Shown here piece after piece: positions 1,771 to 31,849 of a stretch of DNA of 35,432 nt (position 1 is the first letter of the stretch; each line of letters starts with the position of its first letter). The stretch lies in IMG/VR virus record IMGVR_UViG_2737471826_000010, positions 1 to 35,432 of that record. One strand, given 5' to 3'. The translations under genes and the position numbers were made by a program. The notes beneath the pieces were generated by a model. The model was not told the origin of the DNA. It saw only the letters and a program-made list of their open reading frames with translations, and ran no database searches. Origin of the DNA: a virus (taxonomy: Duplodnaviria; Heunggongvirae; Uroviricota; Caudoviricetes).

Positions 1771-2355
1771 TTATTGTTTGTTTTTTTCGTTCTGGTTGAT
1801 GACAAATTCAATGTAACTTTCGATCTTTGCTTTCTCGGTTTCGGGTAACAATGCGTAGCGCGAGCGATCATAGTTGATGGTCGCAGGGTCATGCGGATGA
1901 ATCAGTAGTTCATATCCGTGACGCCCGAATGCAGATGCAACATTCTCCAGGGTGGAAATGGAAACGCTGACCTCATTGTTTAACAGGCGGCTTATTGTCA
2001 CCTGGGCGACGCCGGATGCGCGGTGAAGTTTTCCCTGAGTTGAAAGGTCGCGGCTTTCACTCATCCAGCGTTCCAGGTTGTGAGCCGCCAGCTGACCTAT
2101 ATCACTCGGGCCGACAGGCTGAAAACCCTCCTGAGAAAGCGAGCGATCAATATCAAGCCAGTTACGGGGTTTATTGGCGGCAGCTTCAATTTTTCGTGCA
2201 ACCTGGTCGCCGATAACCTTCTTGCCAAGAGCCCAGCGGTTTACCAGATTTGCCTGAGTTCCAAGTTTTTCTGCCATCCGCGTCTGAACACCATTGAATT
2301 CACGGTCGATCAAGTCGTTGAGATTTTGCCTGCGGACGTCCTGGATACTTTTCAT
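1771..2355 (-). CDS. CI-like prophage repressor with two helix-turn-helix regions; no peptidase motif seen
   Basis: 194 aa; N-terminal HTH (QTRMAEKLGTQANLVNRWALGKKVIG) and second HTH-like segment (ASGVAQVTISRLLNNE); divergent from cro across the operator; no GDSM or Ser/Lys autocleavage signature by eye. Confidence 0.65.
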   Translation of the reverse strand: MKSIQDVRRQNLNDLIDREFNGVQTRMAEKLGTQANLVNRWALGKKVIGDQVARKIEAAANKPRNWLDIDRSLSQEGFQPVGPSDIGQLAAHNLERWMSESRDLSTQGKLHRASGVAQVTISRLLNNEVSVSISTLENVASAFGRHGYELLIHPHDPATINYDRSRYALLPETEKAKIESYIEFVINQNEKNKQ

Positions 2356-2410: not shown

Positions 2411-2425
2411 TTACCCAACAGGTAA
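2411..2425. promoter_or_regulatory. operator site TTACC-CAACA-GGTAA (OR, perfect copy)
   Basis: Perfect palindrome in the repressor-cro intergenic region. Confidence 0.65.
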
Positions 2426-2427
2426 AT

Positions 2428-2473
2428 GCACCTCATAGGTAACTATCCTTGATTTTTGTTACCTTATGGGTGA
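2428..2473. promoter_or_regulatory. two degenerate operator sites plus PR-like promoter
   Basis: GCACC-TCATA-GGTAA (2428..2442) and TTACC-TTATG-GGTGA (2459..2473); candidate -35 TTGATT at 2449..2454 and -10 near 2472..2477; three-site layout like OR1-3. Confidence 0.45.
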
Positions 2474-2509: not shown

Positions 2510-2740
2510 ATGAGCGATAACGGACATTTCGATTTCAAAAAGCACTGGCTTGCACTTACTCCGGATGAGCGTGAAGCCTTCGCACAGGAAGCCGGAACGA
2601 CGAGTCACTATATCCAGACTCACTTAACAGGTAAGCGCAAAATGCCAGGTAAAGTATTGATGAATGGGCTTTTTAAAGCCTGTAAAACAAGACAATGGCT
2701 GCGCTCAAAAGCAGAACTGGCATACTTCTTCTACTCATGA
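2510..2740 (+). CDS. cro: Cro-like small HTH regulator
   Basis: 76 aa, divergent from repressor; HTH-like REAFAQEAGTTSHYIQTHLTGKRKMP; followed by a terminator. Confidence 0.55.
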   Translation: MSDNGHFDFKKHWLALTPDEREAFAQEAGTTSHYIQTHLTGKRKMPGKVLMNGLFKACKTRQWLRSKAELAYFFYS

Positions 2741-2762
2741 TATCCAGCCACAACCCTCTGTA

Positions 2763-2784
2763 GACCGCCATCCGGCGGTCTTTT
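2763..2784 (+). terminator. rho-independent terminator (tR1-like) after cro
   Basis: Stem GACCGCC/GGCGGTC, loop ATCC, then TTTT; a half-degenerate operator copy GTACC-TCAAA-GGTAA follows at 2796..2810. Confidence 0.6.
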
Positions 2785-2890
2785 CATATCTATTCGTACC
2801 TCAAAGGTAATAAAAAACCAAATATGGTTGATCTTTTTTTTGTGTCAGCACAAAATAACCGTAATCCCAATACTAATAACAGGGCTTACC

Positions 2891-3091
2891 ATGGAAATCA
2901 TTACACGTATTGATGCCGCAAAGCGCGGACTTAAACGCTACTACACCGGAAAAACATGTAAGCACGGACATGACAGTGAACGCTGGGTTTACAACGGACA
3001 CTGTGTTGAGTGCACCATGGAATCAAACCGTCGTATCAGGGCAGAGATTAAGCAGATCATGATTAATTCCTCCCCACAACATTCAAGCTGA
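2891..3091 (+). CDS. small Cys/His-rich protein, possible zinc-binding regulator (cII position)
   Basis: Start assigned to ATG 2891 (MEIITRIDAAKRGLKRYYTGKTCKHGHDSERWVYNGHCVEC...); the track N-terminal extension is hydrophobic read-through of intergenic sequence. Confidence 0.35.
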   Translation: MEIITRIDAAKRGLKRYYTGKTCKHGHDSERWVYNGHCVECTMESNRRIRAEIKQIMINSSPQHSS

Positions 3092-3106
3092 TAGCGGAGA
3101 TTAATC

Positions 3107-3922
3107 ATGAGCAGACATGCAACAGATTGGGCCTGGGAGACAGATCCAGGTAGCTCGTCATTAAAGCTCATACTGCTCTCGATGGCTGACAGAGCCGATG
3201 AATATAACCTCTGCTACCCCAGCATAGAACGCCTCGTTAAAGACACTTGCCTGAATAAAAAAACCGTGCAGGCCGGACTTATATCGCTCATGAAAATGGG
3301 GCTTATTTCAGATACCGGGGAGAGAAAGGGAGCGACAAAAAGAGTGCGGGTTTTCTCTCTTAATATAACCAAAAACGGGAACATTAAAGGCAACCGAGAG
3401 GGGGGTAATGAACCCGAAAGCGGTAATGTTACCGAAAACTGGAATATACCCAAAAACGGGATGTTGAATGATCCCAAAAACGGGATGTTGAATGATCCCA
3501 AAAACGGGATCCAGAACCAGTCATATAACCAGTCATTTAACCAAGAGAGGGAGAGCAGGACAAAAAACGGGGATTCTGTGCATCATGACCCCGGCGCAAA
3601 CAACGCCGTGATGAATAACTTTGTTCCTCCTGGTGGGCCAGGGCAATTAGGCAAATTTGTCATGCATGAACAATGGCAGCCATCAGATGACTTTCTTCGG
3701 AAAAGCTCATTGCAGGGGATCTACCTGGACAGTCTGCCAACGGCACAGGAACTTGCAGAGTTCAGAATTTACTGGATGGCTGAGGGTAAGGCATACCATC
3801 AGGCACAGTGGGAGCAGAAGCTGGCAAGGCGGCTGCAGATTAGCAGACAGAAGCAATCAACATTACCTGATAACAACGTTCCGCACTGGAACAGCCCTGA
3901 AGCATGGGAGGATTTCTTGTGA
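3107..3922 (+). CDS. replication initiator, O-like (HTH N-terminus, Asn-rich repeat linker, lambda-O-like C-terminus)
   Basis: 271 aa; N-terminal HTH (LKLILLSMADRADEYNLCYPSIERLVKDTCLNKKTVQAGLISL); central NG-rich repeats encoded by DNA iterons; C-terminal WQPSDDF...IYWMAEGKAY; overlaps downstream P-like gene. Confidence 0.6.
   Translation: MSRHATDWAWETDPGSSSLKLILLSMADRADEYNLCYPSIERLVKDTCLNKKTVQAGLISLMKMGLISDTGERKGATKRVRVFSLNITKNGNIKGNREGGNEPESGNVTENWNIPKNGMLNDPKNGMLNDPKNGIQNQSYNQSFNQERESRTKNGDSVHHDPGANNAVMNNFVPPGGPGQLGKFVMHEQWQPSDDFLRKSSLQGIYLDSLPTAQELAEFRIYWMAEGKAYHQAQWEQKLARRLQISRQKQSTLPDNNVPHWNSPEAWEDFL
3369..3512. repeat. iteron array inside the O-like gene (candidate replication origin)
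   Basis: CCAAAAACGGGA at 3369..3380; 24-bp unit CCCAAAAACGGGATGTTGAATGAT at 3449..3472 and 3473..3496, partial third copy 3497..3512; degenerate copies near 3431 and 3560. Confidence 0.5.
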
Positions 3923-4704
3923 ACAACGTTTTTACCGCGATACAAAACCGTGACGGAGAAGCCCTTTCTCGCATGTCAGGTTATGAGCATCAGTACGTCA
4001 ACAATGACAATGTGGTGAACATGTCAGCAGAGAGGCTTGTTGATGCCCTTTTTAAACAGCTGAAACAACTGTTTCCGGCGGCAGTGGTAACCAACCTGAA
4101 GACGCCAGAGCAGGAAGTTGCTGCAAAACAGCAGTGGATTGCTGCGTTTGCCGAAGGGGGGATCCGAACCCGTGAACAGGTTTCTGCTGGTATGCGCCAC
4201 GCCCGCGCCAGTGAGTCTCCGTTCTGGCCGTCGCCAGGGCAATTCATCAAGTGGTGTAAAGACAGCAAGATGGTTCTTGGCGTCACCATTGACGATGTGA
4301 TGGCGGAGTTTCACCGGTACAGCAAGGAAAAAAGTTTATATCCTGGTGGTCCCGAAAGATTCCCGTGGCGACATCCGGTTATGTACTGGGTCGTATGTGA
4401 TACCCGCCGTGCAATGTATCAGCGCCAGCTTAGCGAGATTGAGGTTGAGAAACACGCGCGCAGGCTGCTCGATGATTGGGCGAAAAAGGTGGCTTCCGGA
4501 CAGCAGATACCCGATCCGGTGATCAGCATACAGGCAAAGCCAGAACCCATGAGTACGCCTCCGGACACAGGGAGAGACGTTTACCATCCACCAGGGCGAA
4601 GTTTCGGGTGCATGCCTAACGCCGCCACCCTTGGGGGAATAACACCGGCGCAGTGGCTGATGGAGGAATACAGGCGGGGAAAGGCGTCAGGATTTATCAA
4701 GTAA
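3904..4704 (+). CDS. replication protein P-like helicase loader
   Basis: Strong resemblance to lambda P central region (FPAAVVTNL...EQVSAGMRHARASESPFWPSPGQFIKWCKDSK versus lambda FPASLANR...EQVNAGMRVARRQNRPFLPSPGQFVAWCREEAS, recalled from memory); true start may be in-frame GTG 3919 with GGGAGGA RBS. Confidence 0.75.
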   Translation: MGGFLVNNVFTAIQNRDGEALSRMSGYEHQYVNNDNVVNMSAERLVDALFKQLKQLFPAAVVTNLKTPEQEVAAKQQWIAAFAEGGIRTREQVSAGMRHARASESPFWPSPGQFIKWCKDSKMVLGVTIDDVMAEFHRYSKEKSLYPGGPERFPWRHPVMYWVVCDTRRAMYQRQLSEIEVEKHARRLLDDWAKKVASGQQIPDPVISIQAKPEPMSTPPDTGRDVYHPPGRSFGCMPNAATLGGITPAQWLMEEYRRGKASGFIK

Positions 4705-4741
4705 TACCAGCGCGATAGCGCATTTTTTTACGTCTCGATAA

Positions 4742-4756
4742 TTACCTTAGAGGTAA
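4742..4756. promoter_or_regulatory. operator site TTACC-TTAGA-GGTAA
   Basis: Perfect palindrome copy upstream of a candidate promoter (-35 TTGATT, -10 TTTAAT) for the 4822 gene. Confidence 0.55.
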
Positions 4757-4803
4757 TAAAATATTCTAAAATCTATTGATTTCGTGTCTTATGTGGTTTT
4801 TAA

Positions 4804-4818
4804 TTACCTAAGGGGTAA
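4804..4818. promoter_or_regulatory. operator site TTACC-TAAGG-GGTAA
   Basis: Perfect palindrome copy 4 bp upstream of ATG 4822, overlapping its RBS and predicted +1. Confidence 0.55.
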
Positions 4819-4821
4819 ATC

Positions 4822-5169
4822 ATGAGAAAACAGATGCAGGCTCTTGGTCGACTCAAAACAGGCCAGATGAACAAAACAGAATCTGCGTATTGCCAGCACC
4901 TTGAGCTGCGTAAACGTGCAGGAGAAATCGTCTGGTATCGATTTGAGGGTATCAAGCTGCGGTTAGCTGACAACACGTTCTATACGCCAGATTTTGCTGT
5001 GATGCTCGCCACCGGCGAGATGGAACTGCACGAAGTGAAAGGGGGATTCTGGACCGATGACGCCAGAGTGAAAACCAAAGTCGCCGCAGATCAGTATCCG
5101 TTCCGAATCATCGGGGTAACGGTTAAGCCAAAGAAAGCAGGTGGTGGCTGGAACATCGAAGAGTTCTGA
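4822..5169 (+). CDS. DUF1064-type phage protein (PD-(D/E)XK-like)
   Basis: 115 aa; YTPDFAV...ELHEVKGGFW core resembles DUF1064 proteins of lambdoid prophages. Confidence 0.5.
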   Translation: MRKQMQALGRLKTGQMNKTESAYCQHLELRKRAGEIVWYRFEGIKLRLADNTFYTPDFAVMLATGEMELHEVKGGFWTDDARVKTKVAADQYPFRIIGVTVKPKKAGGGWNIEEF

Positions 5170-10038: not shown

Positions 10039-10115
10039 TGGCGTGGCATGCAGGATTCGAACCTGCGACCAACCGCTTAGAAGGCGGTTGCTCTGTCCAA
10101 CTGAGCTAATGCCAC
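10039..10115 (-). tRNA. tRNA-Arg (anticodon UCU), argU-like
   Basis: 77 nt; acceptor GTGGCAT/ATGCCAC, D-arm GCTC...GAGC, anticodon stem ACCGC/GCGGT with loop CTTCTAA, T-arm GCAGG-TTCGAAT-CCTGC, encoded CCA; close to E. coli argU with compensatory stem changes. Confidence 0.9.
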
Positions 10116-24046: not shown

Positions 24047-26521
24047 ATGAGACAGGAATGTATACAAGCGGTCCAGCAGGCGGCGCAGCGCACGTTAACG
24101 GCGCGAGAAATACAGAACATTGAAGACCGCATTTATCGAAATATGCGCTCCATTGCTCGTGATGACCCGATGTCGTGGCGACAACTTTCCGAATCAGAGC
24201 GGCTGTATCGTGCAGCACAATTGGCATCTGAAGAATTACAGCGAGAAGCGGCATTAAAGAAACGTCGTGTGGCCCTCACTATAGCCGCACGTCAGAGATT
24301 GGATAAATTTATCAATAGCTATCAAGGGGCTGATGGGAAACTTGGCGCTCTTAACCGTACTATTGCTTTTAATGCAGACGGTAAATCGAATTTCCTCTCT
24401 GTTGAATCCAGAACAAAAGCCACCCGTGATTATGCATTGAGTCAATTGCAGGAGGCATTCGAAGCAGTTGATCCTCGCTTTTTTGGTCTGTTTGAAGATG
24501 AAGCTGGCGTACGTGACCTGGTATATGAAATGCGGGGGCAAAATACTGGCAATGCTAAAGCAAGAAAAGGTGCTAAGGCGTGGAGAGAAGTGACAGAGCT
24601 ACTGCGCCGCCGGTTTAATGATGCTGGTGGGGACATTGGCTATCTCGAAAACTGGGGGATCCCTCAACATCATTCTATGGAAAAGGTTGGGGCGGTATCA
24701 AAGGATAAGTGGGTTAGCGATGTTATAGGTAAGCTGGATCGCAAATATTATACCCGAGCCGATGGACAACTGATGAACGATGCCGAGTTGTCTGAATTTC
24801 TTGGAGAGGCTTATAACACGATCGCTACTGGTGGGCTGAATAAGCTTACTGATACCGGAATGCGAATTTCCGGCGCACGTGCTAACCGTGGTAATGCATC
24901 ACGACAGATACATTTCAAAGATGCAGATTCCTATCTGCAATATCAGCAACTTTATGGCGATCGCTCTCTATGGGAAATCATGGTCGGTCACCTGGAAGGT
25001 ATCAGTAAAGATATTGCACTGGTGGAAACATATGGCCCAAACCCCGATCATGTTTTCCGCTCCCTTCTTGATCAGGTTAAGGCAGAAACGGCAACAGCTA
25101 ACCCGAGTAAAACCGGTAGCGTCGAGCGTCTGGCGAACAAAACAGAGAACTTGTACAACTTTATTTCCGGAAAAACACAGCCTGTAGCGAATCCGCACAT
25201 CGCGCGATGGTCTGACAATATCCGCAACTGGCTGGTTGCCAGCAGACTCGGATCCGCGTTGCTGTCATCGTTCTCTGATCTTGGAACCATGTATCTGTCT
25301 GCGAAGGTTACCAACCTTCCAATGAACCAGTTATTTCGCAACCAGCTTGAAGCTATGGACCCAACGAACCGTACAGAACTTGCGCGGGCGCGCCGCGCTG
25401 GCCTGGCGATGGAATCTCTACTTGGCAGCGTTAACCGCTGGGCGATGGATAATATGGGGCCGTCTGTGTCTCGTTGGGCGGCAACGGCGGTAATGCGTGC
25501 CAGTGGGCTTACAGCATGGTCAGATGCGCACAAGCGCGCCTATGGCGTAACCATGATGGGAAGCCTGGGAGAAGTAGTGTCACGGACACCAGACCTTCGT
25601 AGCCTCGATGACTCTGATTTTCGTATCCTGAAAAGCAAAGGGATTACTGACACAGACTGGAGCGTATGGAAGCTGGCGCAACAGGAGGACTGGGGGAACG
25701 GTAATAATACGATGCTGACACCGGAAAGCATTATGCGTATCCCTGATTCAGCAGTTAAACATCTTGGTGAGCCTGAGCGCGTGAAATTTGAGGCAATGCG
25801 TAAACTGCTCGGTGCCGTAACTGAAGAAGTTGATATGGCTGTTATTACACCGGGCGCACGTGAACAGATGTTCGTAGGGTCTGGTCTTCAGCGTGGAACA
25901 TGGAAAGGTGAATTAACGAGAAGTGTTTTCCTGTTTAAATCGTTCCCTATCTCGGTAGTTATGCGTCACTGGCATAGAGCTATGGGGATGCCGTCTGCTG
26001 GTGGGCGTGCAGCATATATAGCAACGTTTTTAGCAAGCACAACCATGCTTGGTGCTCTTTCCATGCAGATTACTGATCTTATTAATGGGAGAAATCCAAA
26101 AGAAATGACCGGTGACAACATGGTTAAATTCTGGATAAATGCATTTTTAAAAGGTGGTGGTGCAGGGTTGTATGGTGATTTTCTTTTCTCTGACCACACC
26201 AGGTACGGAAGCGGCGCGTTGGCGTCGATGCTTGGCCCGGTAGCTGGTCTGGTTGATGACGTAGTGAAGATTGCTCAGGGCATACCGTTAAATGCTGTGG
26301 AAGGGAAGAATGAGCAGACTGGTGGTGATCTGGTTAAGCTGGGGAAAGGTCTGATGCCAGGTGCGAATCTCTGGTACTTAAAGGCGGCTCTCGATCACAT
26401 GATCTTTAACCAGATGCAGGAGTATTTTTCACCAGGCTATTTGCGTAAAATGGAGCAACGTTCAAAGAAAGAGTTTAACCAGACATACTGGTGGCGACCT
26501 CAGGATGTCACTCCGCAATAA
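24047..26521 (+). CDS. internal virion/ejection protein (824 aa)
   Basis: Large ORF with GAGAGG RBS; last gene of the morphogenesis run. Confidence 0.5.
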   Translation: MRQECIQAVQQAAQRTLTAREIQNIEDRIYRNMRSIARDDPMSWRQLSESERLYRAAQLASEELQREAALKKRRVALTIAARQRLDKFINSYQGADGKLGALNRTIAFNADGKSNFLSVESRTKATRDYALSQLQEAFEAVDPRFFGLFEDEAGVRDLVYEMRGQNTGNAKARKGAKAWREVTELLRRRFNDAGGDIGYLENWGIPQHHSMEKVGAVSKDKWVSDVIGKLDRKYYTRADGQLMNDAELSEFLGEAYNTIATGGLNKLTDTGMRISGARANRGNASRQIHFKDADSYLQYQQLYGDRSLWEIMVGHLEGISKDIALVETYGPNPDHVFRSLLDQVKAETATANPSKTGSVERLANKTENLYNFISGKTQPVANPHIARWSDNIRNWLVASRLGSALLSSFSDLGTMYLSAKVTNLPMNQLFRNQLEAMDPTNRTELARARRAGLAMESLLGSVNRWAMDNMGPSVSRWAATAVMRASGLTAWSDAHKRAYGVTMMGSLGEVVSRTPDLRSLDDSDFRILKSKGITDTDWSVWKLAQQEDWGNGNNTMLTPESIMRIPDSAVKHLGEPERVKFEAMRKLLGAVTEEVDMAVITPGAREQMFVGSGLQRGTWKGELTRSVFLFKSFPISVVMRHWHRAMGMPSAGGRAAYIATFLASTTMLGALSMQITDLINGRNPKEMTGDNMVKFWINAFLKGGGAGLYGDFLFSDHTRYGSGALASMLGPVAGLVDDVVKIAQGIPLNAVEGKNEQTGGDLVKLGKGLMPGANLWYLKAALDHMIFNQMQEYFSPGYLRKMEQRSKKEFNQTYWWRPQDVTPQ

Positions 26522-26530
26522 GGAACAACA

Positions 26531-26944
26531 ATGAAGGAATTATTGCTGTTATCGGTATTTTTGATATCAGCTTGCTCGACATCCTATGATGTTTATGACG
26601 GTGTTGATAAGGCATATTGCGACAAAGTTAAAATGGATTTTTCTCTTGCCAAGACGGCGAAGGATAGTTGTATTGATCACTACGTCAAGACTTATACCAA
26701 GCCAGCCTCATCGGCATCTGATATTGCTGAAGGTGCTGTGTTTGAGTGTAACAAGGTGATATCCATCGCAGCGAGTTCTTCATACGATGCTGCTGTATGT
26801 GCAATGGCTGAAAGAAACGGCATGTCAGTGCAAAAAATTAATAGCATGATAAGCAGTAATGACGAAGCCAAAATAAGAACTGATATCAGCTCGGTGAAAA
26901 AAGATGCCATGAACAGAGTTGTAAAATATCAGTCATCTTTATAA
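26531..26944 (+). CDS. lipoprotein moron (possible superinfection exclusion)
   Basis: Signal peptide with lipobox LISAC; visibly AT-rich; followed by palindrome copy 3 and a terminator. Confidence 0.55.
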   Translation: MKELLLLSVFLISACSTSYDVYDGVDKAYCDKVKMDFSLAKTAKDSCIDHYVKTYTKPASSASDIAEGAVFECNKVISIAASSSYDAAVCAMAERNGMSVQKINSMISSNDEAKIRTDISSVKKDAMNRVVKYQSSL

Positions 26945-26947
26945 GTC

Positions 26948-26959
26948 GTGACATGTCAC
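26948..26959. repeat. 12-bp perfect palindrome GTGACATGTCAC (copy 3)
   Basis: Exact copy 3 bp after the lipoprotein stop and 1 bp before the terminator stem. Confidence 0.8.
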
Positions 26960-26960
26960 A

Positions 26961-26984
26961 GGCCGCTTTCGCGGCCTTGTTTTT
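26961..26984. terminator. terminator between convergent genes
   Basis: Stem GGCCGC/GCGGCC, loop TTTC, then TTGTTTTT on plus strand. Confidence 0.6.
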
Positions 26985-27144
26985 AACGAATGCCACCGCC
27001 GCCTGGGCGGGAATCCGCAGAACGCCCACCGCAGCGGGAGCCGTCAGCAGCAGTGTCGCTGTCGTGCTGACAACGACCAGCAAAGGCCTGAGTTGAAGCT
27101 ACCAGAGACAATAAAACGAACAGTGCAGCAAATGCTTTTTTCAT
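26983..27144 (-). CDS. small secreted peptide (53 aa)
   Basis: Internal ATG at 27144 gives MKKAFAALFVLLSLVASTQAFA signal peptide followed by a 31-aa Gly/Arg-rich mature region with two Cys; weak RBS. Confidence 0.3.
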   Translation of the reverse strand: MKKAFAALFVLLSLVASTQAFAGRCQHDSDTAADGSRCGGRSADSRPGGGGIR

Positions 27145-27225
27145 TGTGAAATTTCCATCTATAAGCCACCTCAATGTGGCGTCAATGAGTGTAGCACTGA
27201 CTTTTGTTTCGTCCATAAAAAACTA

Positions 27226-27738
27226 CTATGCAGGCTTTTTGGATTTGTACGAATAATCCCACGGATAAACATTTCTACTAAGTGGAGCTGTATTCGTTCG
27301 TTCATGAAATAATTTTGTGAAATTCAATACGGAATCCATCCAAACTTTTGCGTTAGCTTTGGTGTGTGCGGGCGGGTCCCAATAAGCTAGTAAGGCTGCA
27401 TCTCTTATTTCATTGACTGCATATATGAGATATGCGTTACTGGTTGGTTTTGGCCTGTAATTTCCTTGTTCATCAATCAATCCGTATGACCACTCATCCC
27501 AACACTGTTCAGTACATGAGTATGAATATGATGCATATTCACCAATATTGACATGAACCTTTCTGAGATGGAAACCTAATACTTCGTCTGGTCTTTCAAA
27601 AAGAGTATCTTTTCCCAGATCAGGATGATGACCATGACGCCAGTGTTGTTTAAAAGCATCTTTTAGCGAAATCAGAAAGTCATCAGTTTTAAACTCACCA
27701 GTAGGTATAACCTTCCCGCTATACTCACTCAAAAACAT
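27226..27738 (-). CDS. YafO-like toxin (putative ribosome-dependent mRNA interferase)
   Basis: 170 aa; PDLGKDTLFE, FHLRKVHVNIG and AYLIYAV...ALLAYWDPPAHTKA align with remembered E. coli YafO blocks (PDTFGRDALYD, ERVAHIHLANE, AHLVYCQ...WLLIAILKPEPHKLA); strong RBS AAGGAAGAGGAA; AT-rich. Confidence 0.45.
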   Translation of the reverse strand: MFLSEYSGKVIPTGEFKTDDFLISLKDAFKQHWRHGHHPDLGKDTLFERPDEVLGFHLRKVHVNIGEYASYSYSCTEQCWDEWSYGLIDEQGNYRPKPTSNAYLIYAVNEIRDAALLAYWDPPAHTKANAKVWMDSVLNFTKLFHERTNTAPLSRNVYPWDYSYKSKKPA

Positions 27739-28051
27739 CGAATTCCTCTTCCTTCATATGCGTTTCTAATGAGTTAAGCTGGCGGAAAGATATCTCTTTT
27801 GATTCTGCAGATGAGAGCTTTTTTATCCGCTTTATATTCTTTGTGATAGGAATAGACATTGTATGCACATCAGCGGATGCTCTTGGCTTTGTGCTGATAA
27901 AAATATGGCGCAATGCCGCATTTTCACTATTGAACGAGCCAATAGCTGATTTACGTGCTACAACCTTACCAGTAAAAATACGACTCTTGCTACGCTTTGC
28001 ATGAGTTCCGCTTCTTACCGGACCTCTCATCACGAATCCAAGTTTTGTCAT
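27725..28051 (-). CDS. putative antitoxin/partner of the YafO-like toxin
   Basis: 108 aa, basic N-terminus, acidic C-terminus EEEFDVFE; GGAGA RBS; overlaps the toxin gene by 14 nt; not obviously YafN/Phd-like. Confidence 0.4.
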   Translation of the reverse strand: MTKLGFVMRGPVRSGTHAKRSKSRIFTGKVVARKSAIGSFNSENAALRHIFISTKPRASADVHTMSIPITKNIKRIKKLSSAESKEISFRQLNSLETHMKEEEFDVFE

Positions 28052-28093
28052 CTTTAATCTCCGGTAAGTTACAGGTATAAAATAAAAACAGGT

Positions 28094-28108
28094 TTACCTT
28101 TAAGGTAA
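28094..28108. promoter_or_regulatory. operator site TTACC-TTTAA-GGTAA upstream of toxin-antitoxin-like operon
   Basis: Perfect palindrome copy 43 bp upstream of start codon at 28051. Confidence 0.55.
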
Positions 28109-28180
28109 TAGTACGCTATTCACCCCCAGTCTGCAATCTGTACAGAATTATTTAAAGGCACATCCCTGTGCCGCCGCCAG

Positions 28181-28891
28181 TCAGAAGAACCCTGCCTTGT
28201 CGTTGATGTATTCCGCGTGTGTCTGGATATCACGCAGGCATTTGCTCACACCGACGATGTAGCAGAACATGGTGGTCAGTTCCGCCGCCGCGCCCGATAC
28301 GTCGTGCCCGTCGTCCTGTAACTGGTTCAGCAGATTCATCAGCAGTGAGTTCTCCGTCAGGCCGAGAACACCAGACGGCGAGTGAATCAGGCTGCGGTAG
28401 CCGGGCTTCAGTGGGGCGCTGTAGGTTTTGTTCTCTATCTTCATTGCCTGCATCACTGCTGATGCTGTGGCGTTGGCTACCTGGTCGGCAACCATCTTTA
28501 TGCGTTCTTCCTGCGGGAGCGAGTTTTTAATGTAACTTCCGGTGCGGCGGATCTGAGGAAGTACTTCGCCTGTAACCCATTTGCGAAAGCGGTAGGGGAT
28601 AGTGCCTGGTGTCACCGCATCGCGGCAGCGGAGGATCAGTGTGTAGAGGCCTGACTCGGAGATGATGTTGATCTCTTTTACTCGGCTGTCAAAAATTGCA
28701 CGATGTTCATGCCCTATGTTGAACATAGACCTTTCATCATCATCCAGTTTTTCAAGTGCTTGGGTGACGTTTTGGATACGCAGCGCACTACAAACGTCTT
28801 GGGCTACAAACCATGGTTGGCCATCGATAATGATGGAACGGATAGGGTTAACAGATTCAAATTTGAAGATGGCAGTTTGAGCATTAGCCAT
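28181..28891 (-). CDS. antirepressor with Bro-N domain
   Basis: N-terminal WFVAQDVCSAL...SGLYTLILRCRD...FRKWVTGEVLPQIRRTG is a Bro-N-type signature; start set to ATG 28891 with GGAGA RBS; C-terminal domain paralogous to gene 29207..29464. Confidence 0.65.
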   Translation of the reverse strand: MANAQTAIFKFESVNPIRSIIIDGQPWFVAQDVCSALRIQNVTQALEKLDDDERSMFNIGHEHRAIFDSRVKEINIISESGLYTLILRCRDAVTPGTIPYRFRKWVTGEVLPQIRRTGSYIKNSLPQEERIKMVADQVANATASAVMQAMKIENKTYSAPLKPGYRSLIHSPSGVLGLTENSLLMNLLNQLQDDGHDVSGAAAELTTMFCYIVGVSKCLRDIQTHAEYINDKAGFF

Positions 28892-29048
28892 GGTGGTTAT
28901 CTCCACTTAGTGATTTTAATCACCACCGCAACGCCAATTACTGGTGGTGAACTGGACAAGGTTGGCGTACCGGCCTAAGTGGTACCGGCGTCCTTTCGGA
29001 CCCCTGCCCAGCCCACCATAATTCGGATATAGCTGTGCTTAACGCATA

Positions 29049-29071
29049 AAAAAACCACGTCTGGCGTGGTA
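29049..29071 (-). terminator. rho-independent terminator between the two antirepressor genes
   Basis: Stem ACCACG/CGTGGT, loop TCTGG, minus-strand T7 tract. Confidence 0.6.
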
Positions 29072-29160
29072 TGCGCCACTTAGTAACCCGGGACGCCAAT
29101 CCCGGCACTGGATTTTGCCAGTGCCTGATTACTATGGCACAAGAGGAGTGCGATGTAAAT

Positions 29161-29175
29161 TTACCGCAAAGGTAA
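29161..29175. promoter_or_regulatory. operator site TTACC-GCAAA-GGTAA
   Basis: Perfect palindrome copy between the small and large antirepressor genes. Confidence 0.55.
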
Positions 29176-29206
29176 ATATAAGCACTCCACTTGGTAATTG
29201 CAAACC

Positions 29207-29464
29207 TTATCTGGTTTGTTTTCGTAATTGTTCGGCACAATAGTCGAGATGTGTTTGCAGATCCTGCATAGACATCTGTGAGCTGGTGACGTAGTTAATC
29301 AGTGCAGTCAGTTCGGCAAGTGGGCCATCGACATTAAATCCATCCTTATCGAGATCCCGGAGTAATTTCATCAAGTGCGATCCCTCCACCAGTGACCTGA
29401 CGCCTCCCGGCGTGTGAATCCTTTCGGTAAATCCGTCTTCCAGTGGATAGTGATACCGCTGCAT
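29207..29464 (-). CDS. small antirepressor-domain protein (paralog of Ant C-terminal domain), candidate SOS-induced antirepressor
   Basis: 85 aa from ATG 29464 (GGAGA RBS); IHTPGGVRSLVEGSHLMKLLRDLDKDGFNVDGPLAELT...LQTH aligns with Ant C-terminus IHSPSGVLGLTENSLLMNLLNQLQDDGHDVSGAAAELT...IQTH; LexA box 20 bp upstream. Confidence 0.55.
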   Translation of the reverse strand: MQRYHYPLEDGFTERIHTPGGVRSLVEGSHLMKLLRDLDKDGFNVDGPLAELTALINYVTSSQMSMQDLQTHLDYCAEQLRKQTR

Positions 29465-29483
29465 CTTATCTTCTCCATGCAAT

Positions 29484-29503
29484 AACTGTATAAATATACA
29501 GTA
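29484..29503. promoter_or_regulatory. LexA (SOS) box
   Basis: AACTGTATAAATATACAGTA matches consensus TACTGTATATATATACAGTA at 18 of 20 positions with intact CTGT-N8-ACAG. Confidence 0.7.
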
Positions 29504-29540
29504 TCAAATAATTTGTTTGCTATCCAGCACGTTTTGCAAA

Positions 29541-29555
29541 TTACCCGAAAGGTAA
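29541..29555. promoter_or_regulatory. operator site TTACC-CGAAA-GGTAA
   Basis: Perfect palindrome copy in the divergent region between small antirepressor gene and tailspike gene. Confidence 0.55.
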
Positions 29556-29659
29556 TATCTATTCGTATTTACAGTCTTTCTATCCATATGTGGTTTTTCA
29601 GGTAATAGAATAACCAGATATGCGGCGCAACGGGTGCTGCGACTATCTGGAGATTTAAC

Positions 29660-31849
29660 ATGACGGTCTCAACCGAAGTTGACCACAACGAATACACCGG
29701 TAACGGCGTTACGACATCATTTCCGTATACCTTCCGTATTTTCAAAAAAACCGACCTGGTTGTTCAGGTGTCTGACCTGAACGGGAACGTAACAGAATTG
29801 GTTCTGGATACCGGTTATAAGGTAACTGGAGCGGGCACTTATAGTGGCGGTGAAGTGGTTCTCCCGTCGCCGCTTGCTGCTGGCTGGCGAATTACGATAG
29901 AGCGTGTGCTTGATGTGGTGCAGGAGACTGATCTTCGCAATCAGGGAAAATTTTTCCCCGAAGTTCATGAAGATGCATTTGACTACCTGACGATGCTGAT
30001 CCAGCGATGTTTTGGGTGGTTCAGACGTGCATTGATGAAACCATCTTTGCTTGCAAAATATTACGATGCAAAGCAAAACAAAATTTCTAACCTTGCAGAT
30101 CCATCATTTGAGCAGGACGCTGTAAATAATCGCTCAATGCGTAATTATGTCGATGCTGCAATCGCCGGGGTTGTTGGTGGTTTTGGTTGGTTTATACCGT
30201 CAGGAAGCGAGGCAAGACAACGAACATTTCAAAGCAAAATGAGGGATATAATTTCTCCTTGTGATTACGAAGATAATATTTTTATGATTAAGGAGTTGAT
30301 ATCCAAAGGCAAAAATGCCGCTGTTTTTAACTCATATTATACTTTTGTTATTACTGTTGGCGAATGGGGTGATTACCCTACACTCAAAGATGCAATCATT
30401 GCAGCCCAGTCAATGAGACCTATGTGGGATGGTGGTAATGCTTTCTGCGAAATAAGAATTAAGACCGGGCATATTATCAACTATCAAATTGAATTCAGTT
30501 CAGGTGTTGATTTGTCTTGGATTAAAATAACATCAGAAGACTCAGTGGTTTTCTCTGACACTCGTTTGTTTACTAAAATCGTTAGAACGTATTACGAATA
30601 CAAGTATTTATTTTACATTTGCGATGCAGCAAAAAGTCCTGTATTTGCTATTCAGATCGAAGAAAATAGAGATGATAGCGATGTTTGTGCATTTATTGTA
30701 ACTCAAAAAGCTGAACTTAATTTCTATCCGTATTCAGGTGCTCGAAAGTTCTACGTTGGAATTCATGGTAGTTTTGGTGCAAAAATTAGTGCATATCATA
30801 CCGGATGTGCTCCTGATGAGGAAAGTGTTGCTGCATATATGCCAGAAGGGTATTACGTATGTGATTTTTCTTATAGCAGATACTCTTCCCTGCAACTGGT
30901 AAATAATGTCAAGGCATCAATGCCTGTAAGCAAGTTTGAACGGTGCACAGAGAGTACGGTTGCGTCAGTTAATTGTATTTATAATGTTAAAGCAGATTTT
31001 CAGGGGTCAAGTGCAAGCTATTGTTATATAGGATGGAATGTAAGAGATGGTTCAAATGTTAATATACGCGACCATAAAACTATACATTGCTCATATCGTG
31101 GATTAACCTGCATTCATACAGCATATGTTGATGCAAGACGACATGACGTTGAAGAAAGTGATGCAGAAACAAGTGGTAAAGTCCTTGAACCAAATATTGA
31201 AAAAGGTTTTTATGGATGTGCACTTGGTGTGCGTATTGATGGTGCGGGTTGCGTTGATGTTGCTGGTAATGATATGCGCAATTGTGGAACAGCCGTTAAT
31301 GCAGACACTGGTGCTGTTATTTCAGGAAAGGCTGTAGATATCTCAGGGGCTGAGCTGGGATTTGATTGCCATGCAGGAGCATCTGTTAATTTTCCAAGGC
31401 TATGGGGTACAGATATAAAAAAATTAATGCACCTCCAAGATGGTGTAAGGTTTAACTCTAATATTTGTCATGTATTTGGTGCAAATCCCACAAAAGATAT
31501 TAGATGGATTGATGTAGAGAGATCTGAAGCTTCTTTTATGAATGCAACGCTGGATGCAGATTCAGGATTTATTGCCGACTGTGGTAGTAGGATAACCATT
31601 GAAGGAAGTAAAGTTAAAAACCAAACAATAAGAAGTTTTTTTGGATCATATGTGGCTATAAATAATACTGTTGCTGACAGAACTTATTCAGATATAGCCG
31701 ATGTTCCGCAGTTGACTATTAGTGGAGGATCTTTTATTTCTGCTACAGGATATTCTAATTCTGACTCCAGCCCTCTGAGGTTGAGCACAACACGAAATAC
31801 ACTTGGCGTTGGAGGAGCCATATTTTCAACCAATGGGGAAGTTTCATGA
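29660..31849 (+). CDS. tailspike / tail fiber with T7-type N-terminal adaptor and divergent receptor-binding domain
   Basis: N-terminus EYTGNGVTTSFPYTFRIF...GWRITIERV resembles podovirus tail-fiber head-binding domain; C-terminal ~550 aa Cys/Gly/Asn-rich; DNA becomes AT-rich after ~30200. Confidence 0.7.
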   Translation: MTVSTEVDHNEYTGNGVTTSFPYTFRIFKKTDLVVQVSDLNGNVTELVLDTGYKVTGAGTYSGGEVVLPSPLAAGWRITIERVLDVVQETDLRNQGKFFPEVHEDAFDYLTMLIQRCFGWFRRALMKPSLLAKYYDAKQNKISNLADPSFEQDAVNNRSMRNYVDAAIAGVVGGFGWFIPSGSEARQRTFQSKMRDIISPCDYEDNIFMIKELISKGKNAAVFNSYYTFVITVGEWGDYPTLKDAIIAAQSMRPMWDGGNAFCEIRIKTGHIINYQIEFSSGVDLSWIKITSEDSVVFSDTRLFTKIVRTYYEYKYLFYICDAAKSPVFAIQIEENRDDSDVCAFIVTQKAELNFYPYSGARKFYVGIHGSFGAKISAYHTGCAPDEESVAAYMPEGYYVCDFSYSRYSSLQLVNNVKASMPVSKFERCTESTVASVNCIYNVKADFQGSSASYCYIGWNVRDGSNVNIRDHKTIHCSYRGLTCIHTAYVDARRHDVEESDAETSGKVLEPNIEKGFYGCALGVRIDGAGCVDVAGNDMRNCGTAVNADTGAVISGKAVDISGAELGFDCHAGASVNFPRLWGTDIKKLMHLQDGVRFNSNICHVFGANPTKDIRWIDVERSEASFMNATLDADSGFIADCGSRITIEGSKVKNQTIRSFFGSYVAINNTVADRTYSDIADVPQLTISGGSFISATGYSNSDSSPLRLSTTRNTLGVGGAIFSTNGEVS

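What the first reader, a model, noticed from the sequence alone, without database searches (positions are those of the whole stretch)
28181..29503. LexA box in front of a small antirepressor-domain gene, paired with a Bro-N antirepressor; repressor shows no peptidase motif
A near-consensus SOS box (AACTGTATAAATATACAGTA, 29484..29503) sits 20 bp upstream of an 85-aa gene whose product aligns with the C-terminal domain of the adjacent 236-aa Bro-N antirepressor. The CI-like repressor (1771..2355) has two HTH-like segments and no visible Ser/Lys autocleavage motif. Together this suggests induction by an SOS-expressed antirepressor rather than by repressor cleavage, as described for Gifsy, 186 Tum and N15-type systems. 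The antirepressor module lies about 27 kb from the immunity region, between ejection proteins and tailspike, and carries two paralogous antirepressor domains.
Basis: partly seen in the sequence, partly recalled or inferred. Interest (0 to 1): 0.8.

Follow-up and report, generated by a model that had tools for sequence, protein, structure and literature searches.

The report
SOS antirepressor plus RNA-gated paralog
This E. coli epsilon15/phiV10-like phage carries the already characterised Salmonella phage SPC32H induction switch (a LexA-controlled small antirepressor that disables a non-cleavable repressor), followed by a second, antisense-RNA-gated Bro-N antirepressor whose tail is a copy of the small one; the first part is known biology and the pairing is a modest new twist.

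Summary

**Known switch.**
- The 85-aa gene (29207..29464, minus strand) is 88% identical to Ant of Salmonella phage SPC32H (PDB 5D50_E).
- The repressor (1771..2355) is a 42%-identical homolog of SPC32H Rep (5D50_A). It has two HTH-like domains and no S24 peptidase.
- The SOS box (29484..29503) is the only strong LexA site in the 35 kb. It aligns column for column with the SPC32H box, in which variant SPC32N carries a C-to-A change.

Between ant and the Bro-N gene lie an IsrK-like leader RNA with its terminator and a C4 antisense RNA. This is a P1 immI / Gifsy-1 isrK-anrP type cassette.
- The C4 loops pair with sites in the leader and over the Bro-N ribosome-binding site.
- All three sites co-vary across 8 loci.
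- The cassette has its own promoter with no LexA box. It is preceded by TTACC-N5-GGTAA, a palindrome found 13 times in the window, including the rep-cro region, and probably the Rep operator.

**Second antirepressor.** The C-terminus of the Bro-N protein (aa 155-231) is an Ant paralog.

**Verdict.** Two known modules in a combination not found described in the searchable literature. The module is common, present in 224 of 5426 complete E. coli genomes. Interest is moderate to low.

The parts
1771..2355 (-). rep: 194-aa two-domain repressor without an S24 peptidase; homolog of SPC32H Rep
   Evidence: 5D50_A E 4e-42 and 5D4Z_A (C-terminal domain) E 4e-20. 42% identity. Pfam gives HTH_3 and YdaS-like HTH only. 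No S24-like sequence anywhere in the window.
2411..2473 (.). rep-cro intergenic operators: TTACC-N5-GGTAA at 2411..2425 and 2459..2473 (one mismatch), plus a half-site near 2437
   Evidence: The same palindrome occurs three times in the SPC32H rep-cro intergenic region.
2510..2740 (+). cro-like 76-aa gene, divergent from rep
   Evidence: phrog_35 transcriptional repressor, E 6e-13.
29541..29555 (.). TTACC-N5-GGTAA palindrome in the ant-tailspike intergenic region (probable Rep operator)
   Evidence: Conserved in SPC32H at the syntenic place.
29484..29503 (.). LexA (SOS) box covering the inferred -10 (TATATT, 29493..29498) and start site of the ant promoter; inferred -35 is TAGCAA at 29517..29522
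   Evidence: 27.7 bits and unique in the window. Aligns with the SPC32H box, in which SPC32N has a C-to-A change. One strong box just upstream of ant in every related locus. The promoter hexamers were read by eye and fell below the scan threshold.
29207..29464 (-). ant: 85-aa small antirepressor, ortholog of SPC32H Ant
   Evidence: 5D50_E E 1e-46. 88% identity to SPC32H ant. phrog_450.
29161..29175 (.). TTACC-N5-GGTAA palindrome immediately upstream of the cassette promoter -35
   Evidence: Arms invariant and spacer variable in 8 loci. Absent upstream of isrK in 5 non-Uetakevirus cassettes.
29131..29159 (-). cassette promoter: TTTACA, 17-nt spacer, (TG)CATAGT; predicted start near 29124
   Evidence: The -10 region TTGTGCCATAGT is invariant in 8 loci.
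29048..29124 (-). IsrK-like leader RNA with decoy sites a1 (29093..29100) and b1 (29076..29083) and an intrinsic terminator (29054..29070 plus a U run)
   Evidence: RF01394, 67.7 bits against a gathering score of 50. c4-a1b1 RF03163, 42.6 bits. Terminator. Fold.
28940..29023 (-). C4 antisense RNA with a' (28961..28968) and b' (28975..28982)
   Evidence: RF01695, 66 bits against a gathering score of 45. Fold shows b' in a hairpin loop and a' single-stranded.
28901..28938 (-). C4 target sites a2 (28931..28938) and b2 (28903..28910); b2 overlaps the GGAG Shine-Dalgarno (28901..28904) of the Bro-N gene
   Evidence: Three-way covariation of a1/a'/a2 and b1/b'/b2 in 8 loci.
28181..28891 (-). 236-aa Bro-N::AntC antirepressor: Bro-N domain aa 17-112, Ant-paralogous domain aa 155-231
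   Evidence: PF02498 E 1e-19. 5D50_E E 2e-13 over aa 155-231. phrog_450 E 6e-36 over aa 153-234. The 85%-identical ZX5 ORF4 lowered lysogen counts about 1000-fold when overexpressed (PMC9782041; identity).
28094..28108 (.). TTACC-N5-GGTAA palindrome downstream of the Bro-N gene and upstream of the 108-aa / YafO-like gene pair

Best explanation
This is a two-tier antirepressor locus in an epsilon15/phiV10-like (Uetakevirus) temperate phage.

**Tier 1 (homology to a proven system).**
- In the lysogen, host LexA sits on the box at 29484..29503, which covers the -10 and start site of the ant promoter.
- DNA damage leads to LexA self-cleavage, and the 85-aa Ant is made.
- Ant binds the non-cleavable repressor Rep (1771..2355) and breaks its DNA-binding tetramer. 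Rep then leaves its operators and the lytic genes switch on.

**Tier 2 (RNA part shown by covariation; protein target inferred).**
- Directly downstream lies a P1 immI / Gifsy-1 isrK-anrP type cassette with its own promoter.
- The cassette consists of an IsrK-like leader with decoy sites a1/b1 and a terminator, a C4 antisense RNA, and target sites a2/b2 over the ribosome-binding site of a Bro-N antirepressor.
- C4 keeps that gene untranslated unless leader RNA outweighs it.
- The C-terminal domain of the Bro-N protein is a paralog of Ant, so its likely target is the same Rep.

**Wiring (inferred).**
- The cassette promoter is flanked by the phage's dispersed TTACC-N5-GGTAA palindrome, the probable Rep operator. 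Rep inactivation by Ant should therefore also change cassette transcription.
- No terminator separates ant from the leader, so SOS-induced ant transcripts should end in the IsrK-like decoy.
- Together these would reinforce induction once it has begun.
- The variable C4 pairing types would give P1/P7-like immunity specificities between related phages.
For: **Tier 1**
- Ant matches 5D50_E at E 1e-46 and is 88% identical to SPC32H ant.
- Rep matches 5D50_A at E 4e-42 and has no S24 domain.
- The window holds one LexA box, at 27.7 bits. It is positionally homologous to the SPC32H box, where SPC32N differs by C to A in the CAG arm.
- Each of 10 related loci has exactly one strong box, always just upstream of ant.
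- Published mechanism: PMC7380047 and PMC9638917 summarise Kim & Ryu 2013 and Kim et al. 2016.

**Tier 2**
- Rfam isrK and C4 hits are above gathering scores. The same pair precedes the Bro-N gene in every locus that has it.
- a1/a'/a2 and b1/b'/b2 co-vary three ways, giving 6 combinations in 8 loci, and b2 lies over the Shine-Dalgarno.
- A promoter-like site predicts a start at the IsrK 5' end.
- The AntC domain matches 5D50_E at E 2e-13 and Ant at 43% identity.
- ZX5 ORF4 overexpression lowers lysogeny.
- In Gifsy-1, IsrK activates translation of the downstream antirepressor and induces the prophage.

**Operator**
- 13 palindromes against 0.49 expected, lying between genes and in the rep-cro region.
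- They occupy syntenic places in SPC32H.
- They are absent from isrK cassettes of 5 unrelated phages.
Against: - Nothing was tested biochemically in this phage.
- Rep is only 42% identical to SPC32H Rep, so the Ant-Rep fit is inferred.
- Whether the AntC domain binds Rep is unknown, and the single-sequence structure model was unusable (pLDDT 36).
- The ant promoter hexamers fell below the threshold of the promoter scan.
- The palindromes next to the ant and cassette promoters lie upstream of the -35. That position suits looping or activation as well as repression, and I could not read the primary papers to confirm that this palindrome is the Rep operator.
- In several relatives other genes separate ant from the cassette (L008-L012), so read-through coupling cannot be essential.
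- phiV10 has a frameshifted AntC domain, so tier 2 is dispensable for a viable phage.
- SPC32H has no cassette at all.
Confidence: 0.75

Rival explanations
1. The Bro-N cassette is not part of SOS induction. It is an anti-immunity and heteroimmunity device of the P1/P7 immI kind. It would be expressed mainly by an incoming phage to inactivate the repressor of a resident relative, and blocked in trans by the resident's C4 RNA only when the a/b types match. Its adjacency to ant would be just a shared hot spot for regulatory cargo.
For: - Six a/b specificity combinations occur among 8 loci, as expected for diversifying immunity types.
- The cassette keeps its own promoter and stays intact when other genes separate it from ant.
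- There is no LexA box at the cassette.
- The GenBank phiV10 record lists the protein as 'putative anti-immunity protein'.
- isrK/C4 cassettes front different cargo genes in unrelated phages.
Against: - No terminator lies between ant and the leader in the window, so SOS transcription must at least add leader RNA.
- The AntC domain is a paralog of the SOS-controlled Ant.
- The Uetakevirus-specific palindrome at the cassette promoter links it to the phage's own regulon.
- The two roles are not mutually exclusive.
Confidence: 0.35
2. The Bro-N::AntC protein is the principal antirepressor of these E. coli phages, as the ZX5 study assumed, and the small Ant is an accessory or redundant copy.
For: - Overexpression of ZX5 ORF4 reduced lysogens about 1000-fold and repressor transcripts by 75%.
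- All public records annotate only the Bro-N protein as the antirepressor.
Against: - Only ant carries the LexA box.
- Ant is the protein shown to inactivate Rep in SPC32H, which has no Bro-N gene.
- phiV10, an isolated phage of this group, has a truncated AntC domain but an intact ant.
- The ZX5 study did not test the small gene.
Confidence: 0.12
3. The SOS box is a chance palindrome, or it regulates the divergent tailspike gene rather than ant.
For: - The box lies in a 195-bp divergent intergenic region shared with the tailspike gene.
- The loose pattern CTGT-N8-ACAG is not enriched in the window.
Against: - The box scores higher than any training site and any of 200 shuffles.
- It sits 19 nt from the ant start and 156 nt from the tailspike start.
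- The arms are conserved with a variable core across E. coli, Salmonella and Enterobacter loci, always next to ant.
- The SPC32N variant carries its change inside the box. By my recollection of Kim & Ryu 2013, this variant makes Ant constitutively.
Confidence: 0.03

Closest known systems
Salmonella phage SPC32H Rep-Ant-LexA lytic switch (Kim & Ryu 2013, J Virol 87:11775; Kim et al. 2016, PNAS 113:E2480; PDB 5D50, 5D4Z)
   Same: - Same genus (Uetakevirus).
- Same gene position, between the virion structural gene and the tailspike and divergent from the tailspike.
- Ant 88% identical; Rep homologous along its full length.
- LexA box at the homologous position.
- Same TTACC-N5-GGTAA palindromes at syntenic places.
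   Different: - Rep is only 42% identical.
- SPC32H has no isrK/C4/Bro-N cassette and no second Ant domain.
- The host is E. coli.
Gifsy-1 isrK-orf45-anrP locus (Hershko-Shalev et al. 2016, PMC4825925), P1/P7 immI c4-icd-ant (Citron & Schuster 1990), and P4 seqA-CI-seqC
   Same: - A leader RNA with its terminator (IsrK/a1b1), a processed C4-type antisense RNA, complementary targets at the ribosome-binding site of the downstream gene, and an antirepressor cargo.
- The same isrK + c4 + BRO-N arrangement was noted in APSE phages.
   Different: - In the window there is no translatable upstream ORF. The orf45/icd/'ash' frame is cut after 14 codons by a TAG inside b', and b2 lies directly on the antirepressor's own Shine-Dalgarno.
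- The cargo carries an SPC32H-Ant-like C-terminal domain.
- The promoter is preceded by the Uetakevirus palindrome, which is missing from other cassettes.
- The cassette sits directly behind a LexA-controlled gene.
LexA-controlled antirepressors Tum (186), GfoA/GfhA (Gifsy), AntC (N15)
   Same: The logic is the same: a LexA-repressed small antirepressor inactivates a non-cleavable repressor (Lemire et al. 2011, PMC3121763).
   Different: No sequence relationship was detected. Pfam and PDB searches with Ant return only the SPC32H protein, and the Ant family is small (46 clusters in 1.84 billion proteins).
E. coli phage vB_EcoP_ZX5 ORF4 anti-repressor (Li et al. 2022, PMC9782041) and phiV10 gp23 'anti-immunity protein'
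   Same: - ZX5 ORF4 is the same Bro-N::AntC protein: 85% identical overall, with an almost identical C-terminal half.
- Same locus architecture.
   Different: - Neither the ZX5 paper nor the database records mention the small ant gene, the LexA box, the RNAs or the Ant paralogy.
- The phiV10 copy is frameshifted inside AntC.

Membership tests
SPC32H-type Rep/Ant lytic switch | Small (~86 aa) Ant homologous to SPC32H Ant | tested here: met
   5D50_E E 1e-46 over residues 2-84; 88% identity by tblastn.
SPC32H-type Rep/Ant lytic switch | Two-domain Rep homologous to SPC32H Rep, with no autocleavage (S24) domain | tested here: met
   5D50_A E 4e-42 along the full length and 5D4Z_A E 4e-20 for the C-terminal domain. 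No PF00717 hit. No S24-like sequence in the window.
SPC32H-type Rep/Ant lytic switch | LexA box overlapping the ant promoter | tested here: met
   27.7-bit box 19 nt upstream of the ATG, aligned with the SPC32H box and conserved in 10 loci. The overlap with the -10 was read by eye only.
SPC32H-type Rep/Ant lytic switch | LexA binds the box; Ant binds Rep and releases it from DNA; Rep is not cleaved on SOS | not testable with these tools
   Needs gel shift, pull-down and western blot.
P1 immI / Gifsy-1 isrK-type antisense-controlled antirepressor cassette | C4-family antisense RNA upstream of the antirepressor gene | tested here: met
   RF01695, 66 bits against a gathering score of 45.
P1 immI / Gifsy-1 isrK-type antisense-controlled antirepressor cassette | Upstream leader carrying a1/b1 (IsrK/seqA-like) with a terminator | tested here: met
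   RF01394, 67.7 bits against 50. RF03163, 42.6 bits, just below its gathering score of 46.7. Terminator.
P1 immI / Gifsy-1 isrK-type antisense-controlled antirepressor cassette | C4 loops complementary to targets at the ribosome-binding site of the downstream gene | tested here: met
   a'/a2 and b'/b2 pair, with compensatory changes in 8 loci; b2 overlaps GGAG.
P1 immI / Gifsy-1 isrK-type antisense-controlled antirepressor cassette | Small upstream ORF (icd / orf45) translationally coupled to the antirepressor | tested here: not met
   In the window the frame starting at the ATG at the C4 5' end stops after 14 codons at the TAG of b'. A 38-aa 'ash family' ORF exists only in the ZX5/phiV10-type variant.
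P1 immI / Gifsy-1 isrK-type antisense-controlled antirepressor cassette | Cassette promoter under control of the primary repressor (as P1 C1 acts at Op51) | tested here: inconclusive
   The dispersed palindrome abuts the -35 in all 8 loci and is absent from cassettes of unrelated phages. Rep binding was not shown, and the position is upstream of the -35.
Bro-N antirepressors (PF02498) | N-terminal Bro-N domain | tested here: met
   PF02498 E 1e-19, aa 17-112.
Tum / GfoA / N15 AntC antirepressors | Sequence homology to those proteins | tested here: not met
   Pfam scan of Ant at E <= 0.1 gives only a spurious DUF724 hit. The PDB search gives only 5D50_E. These proteins were not compared pairwise.
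Lambda CI / LexA-type autocleavable repressors | C-terminal S24 peptidase domain with a Ser/Lys dyad | tested here: not met

The most novel reading that the evidence does not exclude
The locus is an integrated relay rather than two independent modules.

- The SOS-induced ant mRNA ends in the IsrK-like decoy. That decoy titrates C4 and unlocks translation of a second, Rep-directed antirepressor.
- Loss of Rep from the palindrome at the cassette promoter feeds back on the same cassette, giving a commitment (ratchet) step to induction.
- The diversifying a/b pairing types define heteroimmunity groups among Uetakeviruses. They would decide which prophages a superinfecting relative can induce.
- The stand-alone Ant and the AntC domain might also form mixed tetramers.
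Probability: 0.25. Interest if true: 0.55.

Novelty: new variant of a known kind. Interest (0 to 1): 0.35.

Why it matters
The core (LexA box, small Ant, non-cleavable Rep) needs no new explanation. It lets the 'hypothetical protein' next to the tailspike gene of phiV10-like prophages be annotated as the SOS antirepressor. The module is present in 224 of 5426 complete E. coli genomes at 80% coverage or more, including O157 typing phages and phage TL-2011b, isolated from an E. coli O103:H25 strain.

The tandem arrangement is the part worth a small experiment. A transcriptionally SOS-gated antirepressor sits next to a translationally RNA-gated paralog apparently aimed at the same repressor. This offers a compact system for asking how phages make induction irreversible. 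It also allows a test of how antisense specificity types police cross-induction between co-resident or superinfecting relatives.

Two practical points follow. The 'Ash family protein' annotations over this region appear to cover the C4 RNA gene. The published ZX5 experiment tested only one of the phage's two antirepressors.

Tried and rejected
- **Primary papers.** Kim & Ryu 2013 (PMC3807360), Kim et al. 2016 (PMC4983836) and the epsilon15 genome paper (PMC2698709) are not held. Their content is cited through secondary papers and my own recollection.
- **Structure model.** A single-sequence AlphaFold model of the Bro-N protein had mean pLDDT 36 and was not used. No fold search was run. The available homologs were all at least 71% identical, so I did not spend the second job.
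- **Loose LexA pattern.** CTGT-N8-ACAG with one mismatch is not enriched and was replaced by a weight matrix.
- **Second LexA box.** I looked for one in front of the Bro-N cassette. None was found in the window or in any related locus.
- **Palindrome as part of the cassette.** I considered that TTACC-N5-GGTAA might belong to the isrK cassette itself. This was rejected because five cassettes in unrelated phages lack it.
- **Conserved cargo.** I considered that cargo proteins of other isrK/C4 cassettes share the AntC domain. They do not: there is only a weak Ant match to APSE-2 P43 (E 0.04), and no match between the window's Bro-N protein and those cargoes.
- **Upstream ORF.** I considered an orf45/icd-like coupled ORF. 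It is not present in the window.
- **Literature.** Searches found no description of the dual arrangement in Uetakeviruses.
Full report
**What the window is**

The region 28000..29700 matches epsilon15/phiV10-like podoviruses (genus Uetakevirus). Examples are HEMP4 (97.9%), TL-2011b, vB_EcoP_ZX5, phiV10 and the O157 typing phages, with weaker matches to Salmonella, Enterobacter and Klebsiella relatives. The full 1.5-kb module is present at 80% coverage or more in 224 of 5426 complete E. coli genomes. There the small gene is annotated 'hypothetical protein'.

**Checking the observation**

- The box AACTGTATAAATATACAGTA lies at 29484..29503.
- The ATG of an 85-aa gene is at 29464, behind a GGAG.
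- A 236-aa gene lies at 28181..28891.

The loose pattern CTGT-N8-ACAG with one mismatch is not enriched (12 found, 13.2 expected). A LexA weight matrix built from 24 E. coli SOS boxes (recalled from the literature, so approximate) gives a clearer answer. This site scores 27.7 bits. The training sites score 13-26, the next site in the window scores 10.9, and the best of 200 shuffles scores 21.6.

The small protein aligns to residues 157-228 of the Bro-N protein at 43% identity, E 2e-15. Pfam finds Bro-N at residues 17-112 of the large protein. In the repressor it finds only HTH families: HTH_3 at 106-147 and a YdaS-like HTH at 21-61. No S24 peptidase is found. tblastn with LexA and lambda cI (sequences from memory) finds nothing S24-like anywhere in the window.

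**What tier 1 is**

- The 85-aa protein matches one PDB entry, chain E of 5D50 ('Anti-repressor protein'), at E 1e-46.
- The repressor matches chain A of the same entry ('Repressor') at E 4e-42 over its whole length. It also matches the isolated C-terminal domain, 5D4Z, at E 4e-20.
- These are Ant and Rep of Salmonella phage SPC32H. Its genome annotates ant (SPC32H_020) at the same place, between the 824-aa virion protein gene and the tailspike, and rep (SPC32H_041) elsewhere.
- Ant is 88% identical and Rep is 42% identical.

Aligning the ant upstream regions puts the window's box exactly on the SPC32H box. The sibling phage SPC32N differs from SPC32H in this 225-nt stretch by a single C-to-A change in the CAG arm of the box. 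That change drops my matrix score from 25.1 to 18.3 bits.

By my recollection of Kim & Ryu (2013, J Virol 87:11775; not readable here), that mutation makes Ant constitutive and the phage unable to stay lysogenic. I also recall that Rep is not cleaved on SOS and that LexA represses ant. Two readable papers confirm the outline:
- A Salmonella prophage review lists Kim & Ryu 2013 among the systems in which LexA self-cleavage leads to an antirepressor that inhibits the repressor by protein-protein contact.
- A 2022 NAR paper summarises Kim et al. 2016: Rep binds palindromic DNA as a tetramer, and tetrameric Ant binds two Rep dimers and breaks the tetramer.

In ten related loci from E. coli, Salmonella and Enterobacter there is exactly one strong LexA box each, always just upstream of ant. 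The CTGT/ACAG arms are intact and the cores vary.

By eye, the box covers a TATATT -10 (29493..29498) that lies 18 nt from a TAGCAA -35. SPC32H has TATGTT and TAGTCA at the same spacing. This promoter is below the threshold of the generic scan.

It describes a known system, and its named comparators (Gifsy, Tum, N15) are analogues rather than relatives.

**What lies between the two genes**

An Rfam scan of 26400..29800 finds the following on the minus strand between the ant stop (29207) and the Bro-N start (28891), all:
- isrK (RF01394, 29048..29124, 67.7 bits, gathering score 50);
- the a1/b1 target motif of C4 (RF03163, 42.6 bits, just under its gathering score);
- a C4 antisense RNA (RF01695, 28940..29023, 66 bits, gathering score 45).

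The IsrK element ends in the only convincing minus-strand terminator of the region (29054..29070 plus a U run). A promoter-like TTTACA-17-(TG)CATAGT at 29131..29159 predicts a start at about 29124, the IsrK 5' end. Folding gives the expected hairpins. The C4 b' sequence lies in a loop and a' is unpaired.

The same isrK + C4 pair precedes the Bro-N gene in every related locus that has one: phiV10, ZX5, Enterobacter, Tyrion, Klebsiella and other E. coli loci. This holds even where unrelated genes have been inserted between ant and the cassette. The pair is absent from SPC32H (with 47, 62, 66).

**Covariation**

Aligning eight loci shows three-way compensatory change.

| Site set | Loci | Leader (a1/b1) | C4 (a'/b') | Downstream target (a2/b2) |
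|---|---|---|---|---|
| a | window, phiV10, ZX5, L010 | GATTGGCGT | ACGCCAAC | ATTGGCGT |
| a | Enterobacter L006, Klebsiella L011, Tyrion | GATTGGTCT | AGACCAAC | GATTGGTCT |
| a | Klebsiella L012 | GATTGAGAC | GTCTCAAC | GATTGAGAC |
| b | window, L006 | CTAAGTGG | CCACTTAG | CTAAGTGG |
| b | phiV10, ZX5 | CTAAAAGG | CCTTTTAG | CTAAAAGG |
| b | L010, L011, L012, Tyrion | CTACA(A/G)AGG | CCTTTGTAG | CTACAAAGG |

- In the window, b2 (28903..28910) overlaps the GGAG Shine-Dalgarno of the Bro-N gene.
- This is the anatomy of P1/P7 immI, known from Citron & Schuster 1990 as cited.
- It is also the anatomy of the Gifsy-1 isrK-orf45-anrP locus. There a fraction of transcripts read through the IsrK terminator to give an untranslatable mRNA. 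Short IsrK in trans then switches on translation of the downstream antirepressor, which induces the prophage.
- An isrK + c4 + BRO-N arrangement has also been noted in APSE phages.
- One family feature is missing here. The orf45/icd/'ash' frame is cut after 14 codons by the TAG inside the window's b' variant, so C4 appears to act directly on the antirepressor's own ribosome-binding site.
- The 'ash family protein' CDS annotated in ZX5 lies over the C4 gene.

**The second antirepressor**

- Residues 155-231 of the Bro-N protein match SPC32H Ant (5D50_E) at E 2e-13. Residues 153-234 match the Ant PHROG (phrog_450, labelled 'unknown function') at E 6e-36.
- The alignment covers the whole Ant length. 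Invariant positions include Y, PL, G, IH, P, GV, L, E, S and LM.
- Full-length relatives are common in E. coli, Salmonella, Citrobacter, Enterobacter and Leclercia.
- In the Enterobacter and Klebsiella loci examined, the gene sits in the same place, next to a small ant.
- The Ant family itself is small: 46 clusters at E <= 1e-3 among 1.84 billion representatives. Most are 80-95 aa stand-alone proteins and a few are C-terminal fusions.
- The N-terminal Bro-N parts are mosaic between relatives, while the C-terminal halves are nearly identical. phiV10's copy is frameshifted inside AntC.
- In phage ZX5, overexpressing the 85%-identical ORF4 lowered lysogen counts from 10^9 to 10^6 and repressor transcripts by 75%. 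That study did not notice the small ant gene, the LexA box or the RNAs.

**A dispersed palindrome**

- TTACC-N5-GGTAA occurs 13 times in the window (one mismatch allowed) against 0.49 expected.
- The sites are at 1637, 1699, 2411 and 2459 (flanking rep and in the rep-cro gap), then 2796, 4742, 4804, 7275, 7293, 10438, 28094, 29161 and 29541.
- SPC32H has the same palindrome at syntenic places, including three in its rep-cro gap and one upstream of ant.
- In all eight cassette loci the palindrome abuts the -35 of the cassette promoter, with invariant arms and a variable spacer.
- To test whether it belongs to the cassette or to the phage, I fetched isrK/C4 cassettes from five unrelated phages: Hafnia yong2, Yersinia YpM_44, Salmonella 118970_sal3, APSE-2 and Stx phage PA28. 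None has the palindrome, and their cargo proteins are unrelated to this one.
- The palindrome is therefore a Uetakevirus feature and most simply the Rep operator. I could not confirm this from the primary paper.
- Its position upstream of the -35 at the ant, cassette and rep promoters is compatible with looping, repression or activation.

**Most likely mechanism**

Shown by homology:
1. LexA represses ant.
2. SOS relieves the repression.
3. Ant dismantles the Rep tetramer.

Shown by covariation:
- C4 pairs with the leader and with the Bro-N ribosome-binding site.

Inferred:
- C4 keeps Bro-N::AntC untranslated in the lysogen.
- Because no terminator separates ant from the leader, SOS-driven transcripts add IsrK-like decoy RNA.
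- Loss of Rep alters cassette transcription through the palindrome.
- The second antirepressor, through its Ant-like domain, also acts on Rep and reinforces induction.
- The six a/b combinations in eight loci would act as immunity specificities between related phages, as in P1 versus P7.

The main rival is that the cassette serves only this anti-immunity role and is unconnected with SOS. The separability of the cassette from ant in several relatives, and the viability of phiV10 with a broken AntC, support that view. They also show that tier 2 is dispensable.

**Novelty and score**

Tier 1 is already known, at 88% protein identity and with a crystal structure. Tier 2 belongs to a known cassette type. 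I found no description of the following:
- the tandem arrangement;
- the cassette's cargo ending in a paralog of the LexA-controlled Ant;
- the phage-specific palindrome at the cassette promoter.

This is a new variant of a known kind. It is useful for annotation and offers a neat experimental system, but it is not surprising to a specialist. Interest 0.35.

Noticed in passing
window 27226..28051 (minus strand); palindrome 28094..28108: Two overlapping minus-strand genes lie between the virion genes and the antirepressor cassette. They are 108 aa (phrog_5933) and 170 aa (phrog_1651, with a weak YafO-toxin Pfam hit at E 9.5e-4, below the cut-off). A TTACC-N5-GGTAA palindrome precedes them. This may be a toxin-antitoxin-like or accessory (moron) pair. 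A YafO-like gene is also present in related E. coli loci (L008-L010).
   Followed up: partly
window 1637, 1699, 2411, 2459, 2796, 4742, 4804, 7275, 7293, 10438, 28094, 29161, 29541: There are 13 copies of TTACC-N5-GGTAA (0.49 expected), and SPC32H has copies at syntenic places. Several are accompanied by a second recurring motif, (T)ATCTATTGA(C), which includes a -35-like TTGAC/TTGAT. This looks like a phage-wide promoter-operator grammar with widely dispersed operators, reminiscent of P1 C1.
   Followed up: partly
window 29144..29191 (minus strand): A 7-bp inverted repeat, GGAGTGC ... GCACTCC, brackets the palindrome and the -35 of the cassette promoter. It folds as a hairpin in a read-through ant transcript. 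The Enterobacter locus L006 has a different repeat at the same place, ATGCAAT ... ATTGCAT. This may be an ant 3'-UTR structure or processing site, or an extended operator.
   Followed up: partly
L001 (phiV10) 2512..3191: The phiV10 Bro-N gene is frameshifted inside the Ant-like C-terminal domain. It is annotated as a 194-aa protein plus a 29-aa ORF. This phage therefore lacks an intact second antirepressor domain while keeping ant.
   Followed up: partly
L012 (Klebsiella phage Kp4865-1) 2495..2755 and 4298..4978: The Klebsiella small Ant contains DGHDVSGAAAEL, identical to the motif in the Bro-N C-terminal domains. E. coli and Salmonella Ant have DGFNVDGPLAEL. This suggests recombination or gene conversion between the two paralogs.
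   Followed up: no
L002 (ZX5) 1779..1892; window 28940..29023: The 'ash family protein' CDS annotated upstream of the antirepressor lies over the C4 RNA gene. In the window the equivalent frame is interrupted by a stop codon, which argues that the RNA, not a protein, is the conserved product. In Hafnia phage yong2 the matching region also lies under a CDS annotated 'Ash family protein'.
   Followed up: partly
window 10039..10115 (minus strand): tRNA-Arg (anticodon TCT), as in SPC32H, which has a tRNA-Arg at the corresponding place.
   Followed up: no
window 26531..26944 (plus strand) and 26983..27216 (minus strand): There is a 137-aa protein with a lipoprotein-like signal (LISAC; phrog_8691, unknown function). 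There is also a 77-aa membrane-associated moron-type protein (phrog_3117/14503). Both are inserted after the last virion gene and are absent from SPC32H at this position.
   Followed up: no
window 1771..2355 compared with 29207..29464: Ant is 88% identical to its SPC32H ortholog, whereas its presumed partner Rep is only 42% identical. It is open whether Ant acts across repressor types, or recognises a small conserved surface.
   Followed up: no
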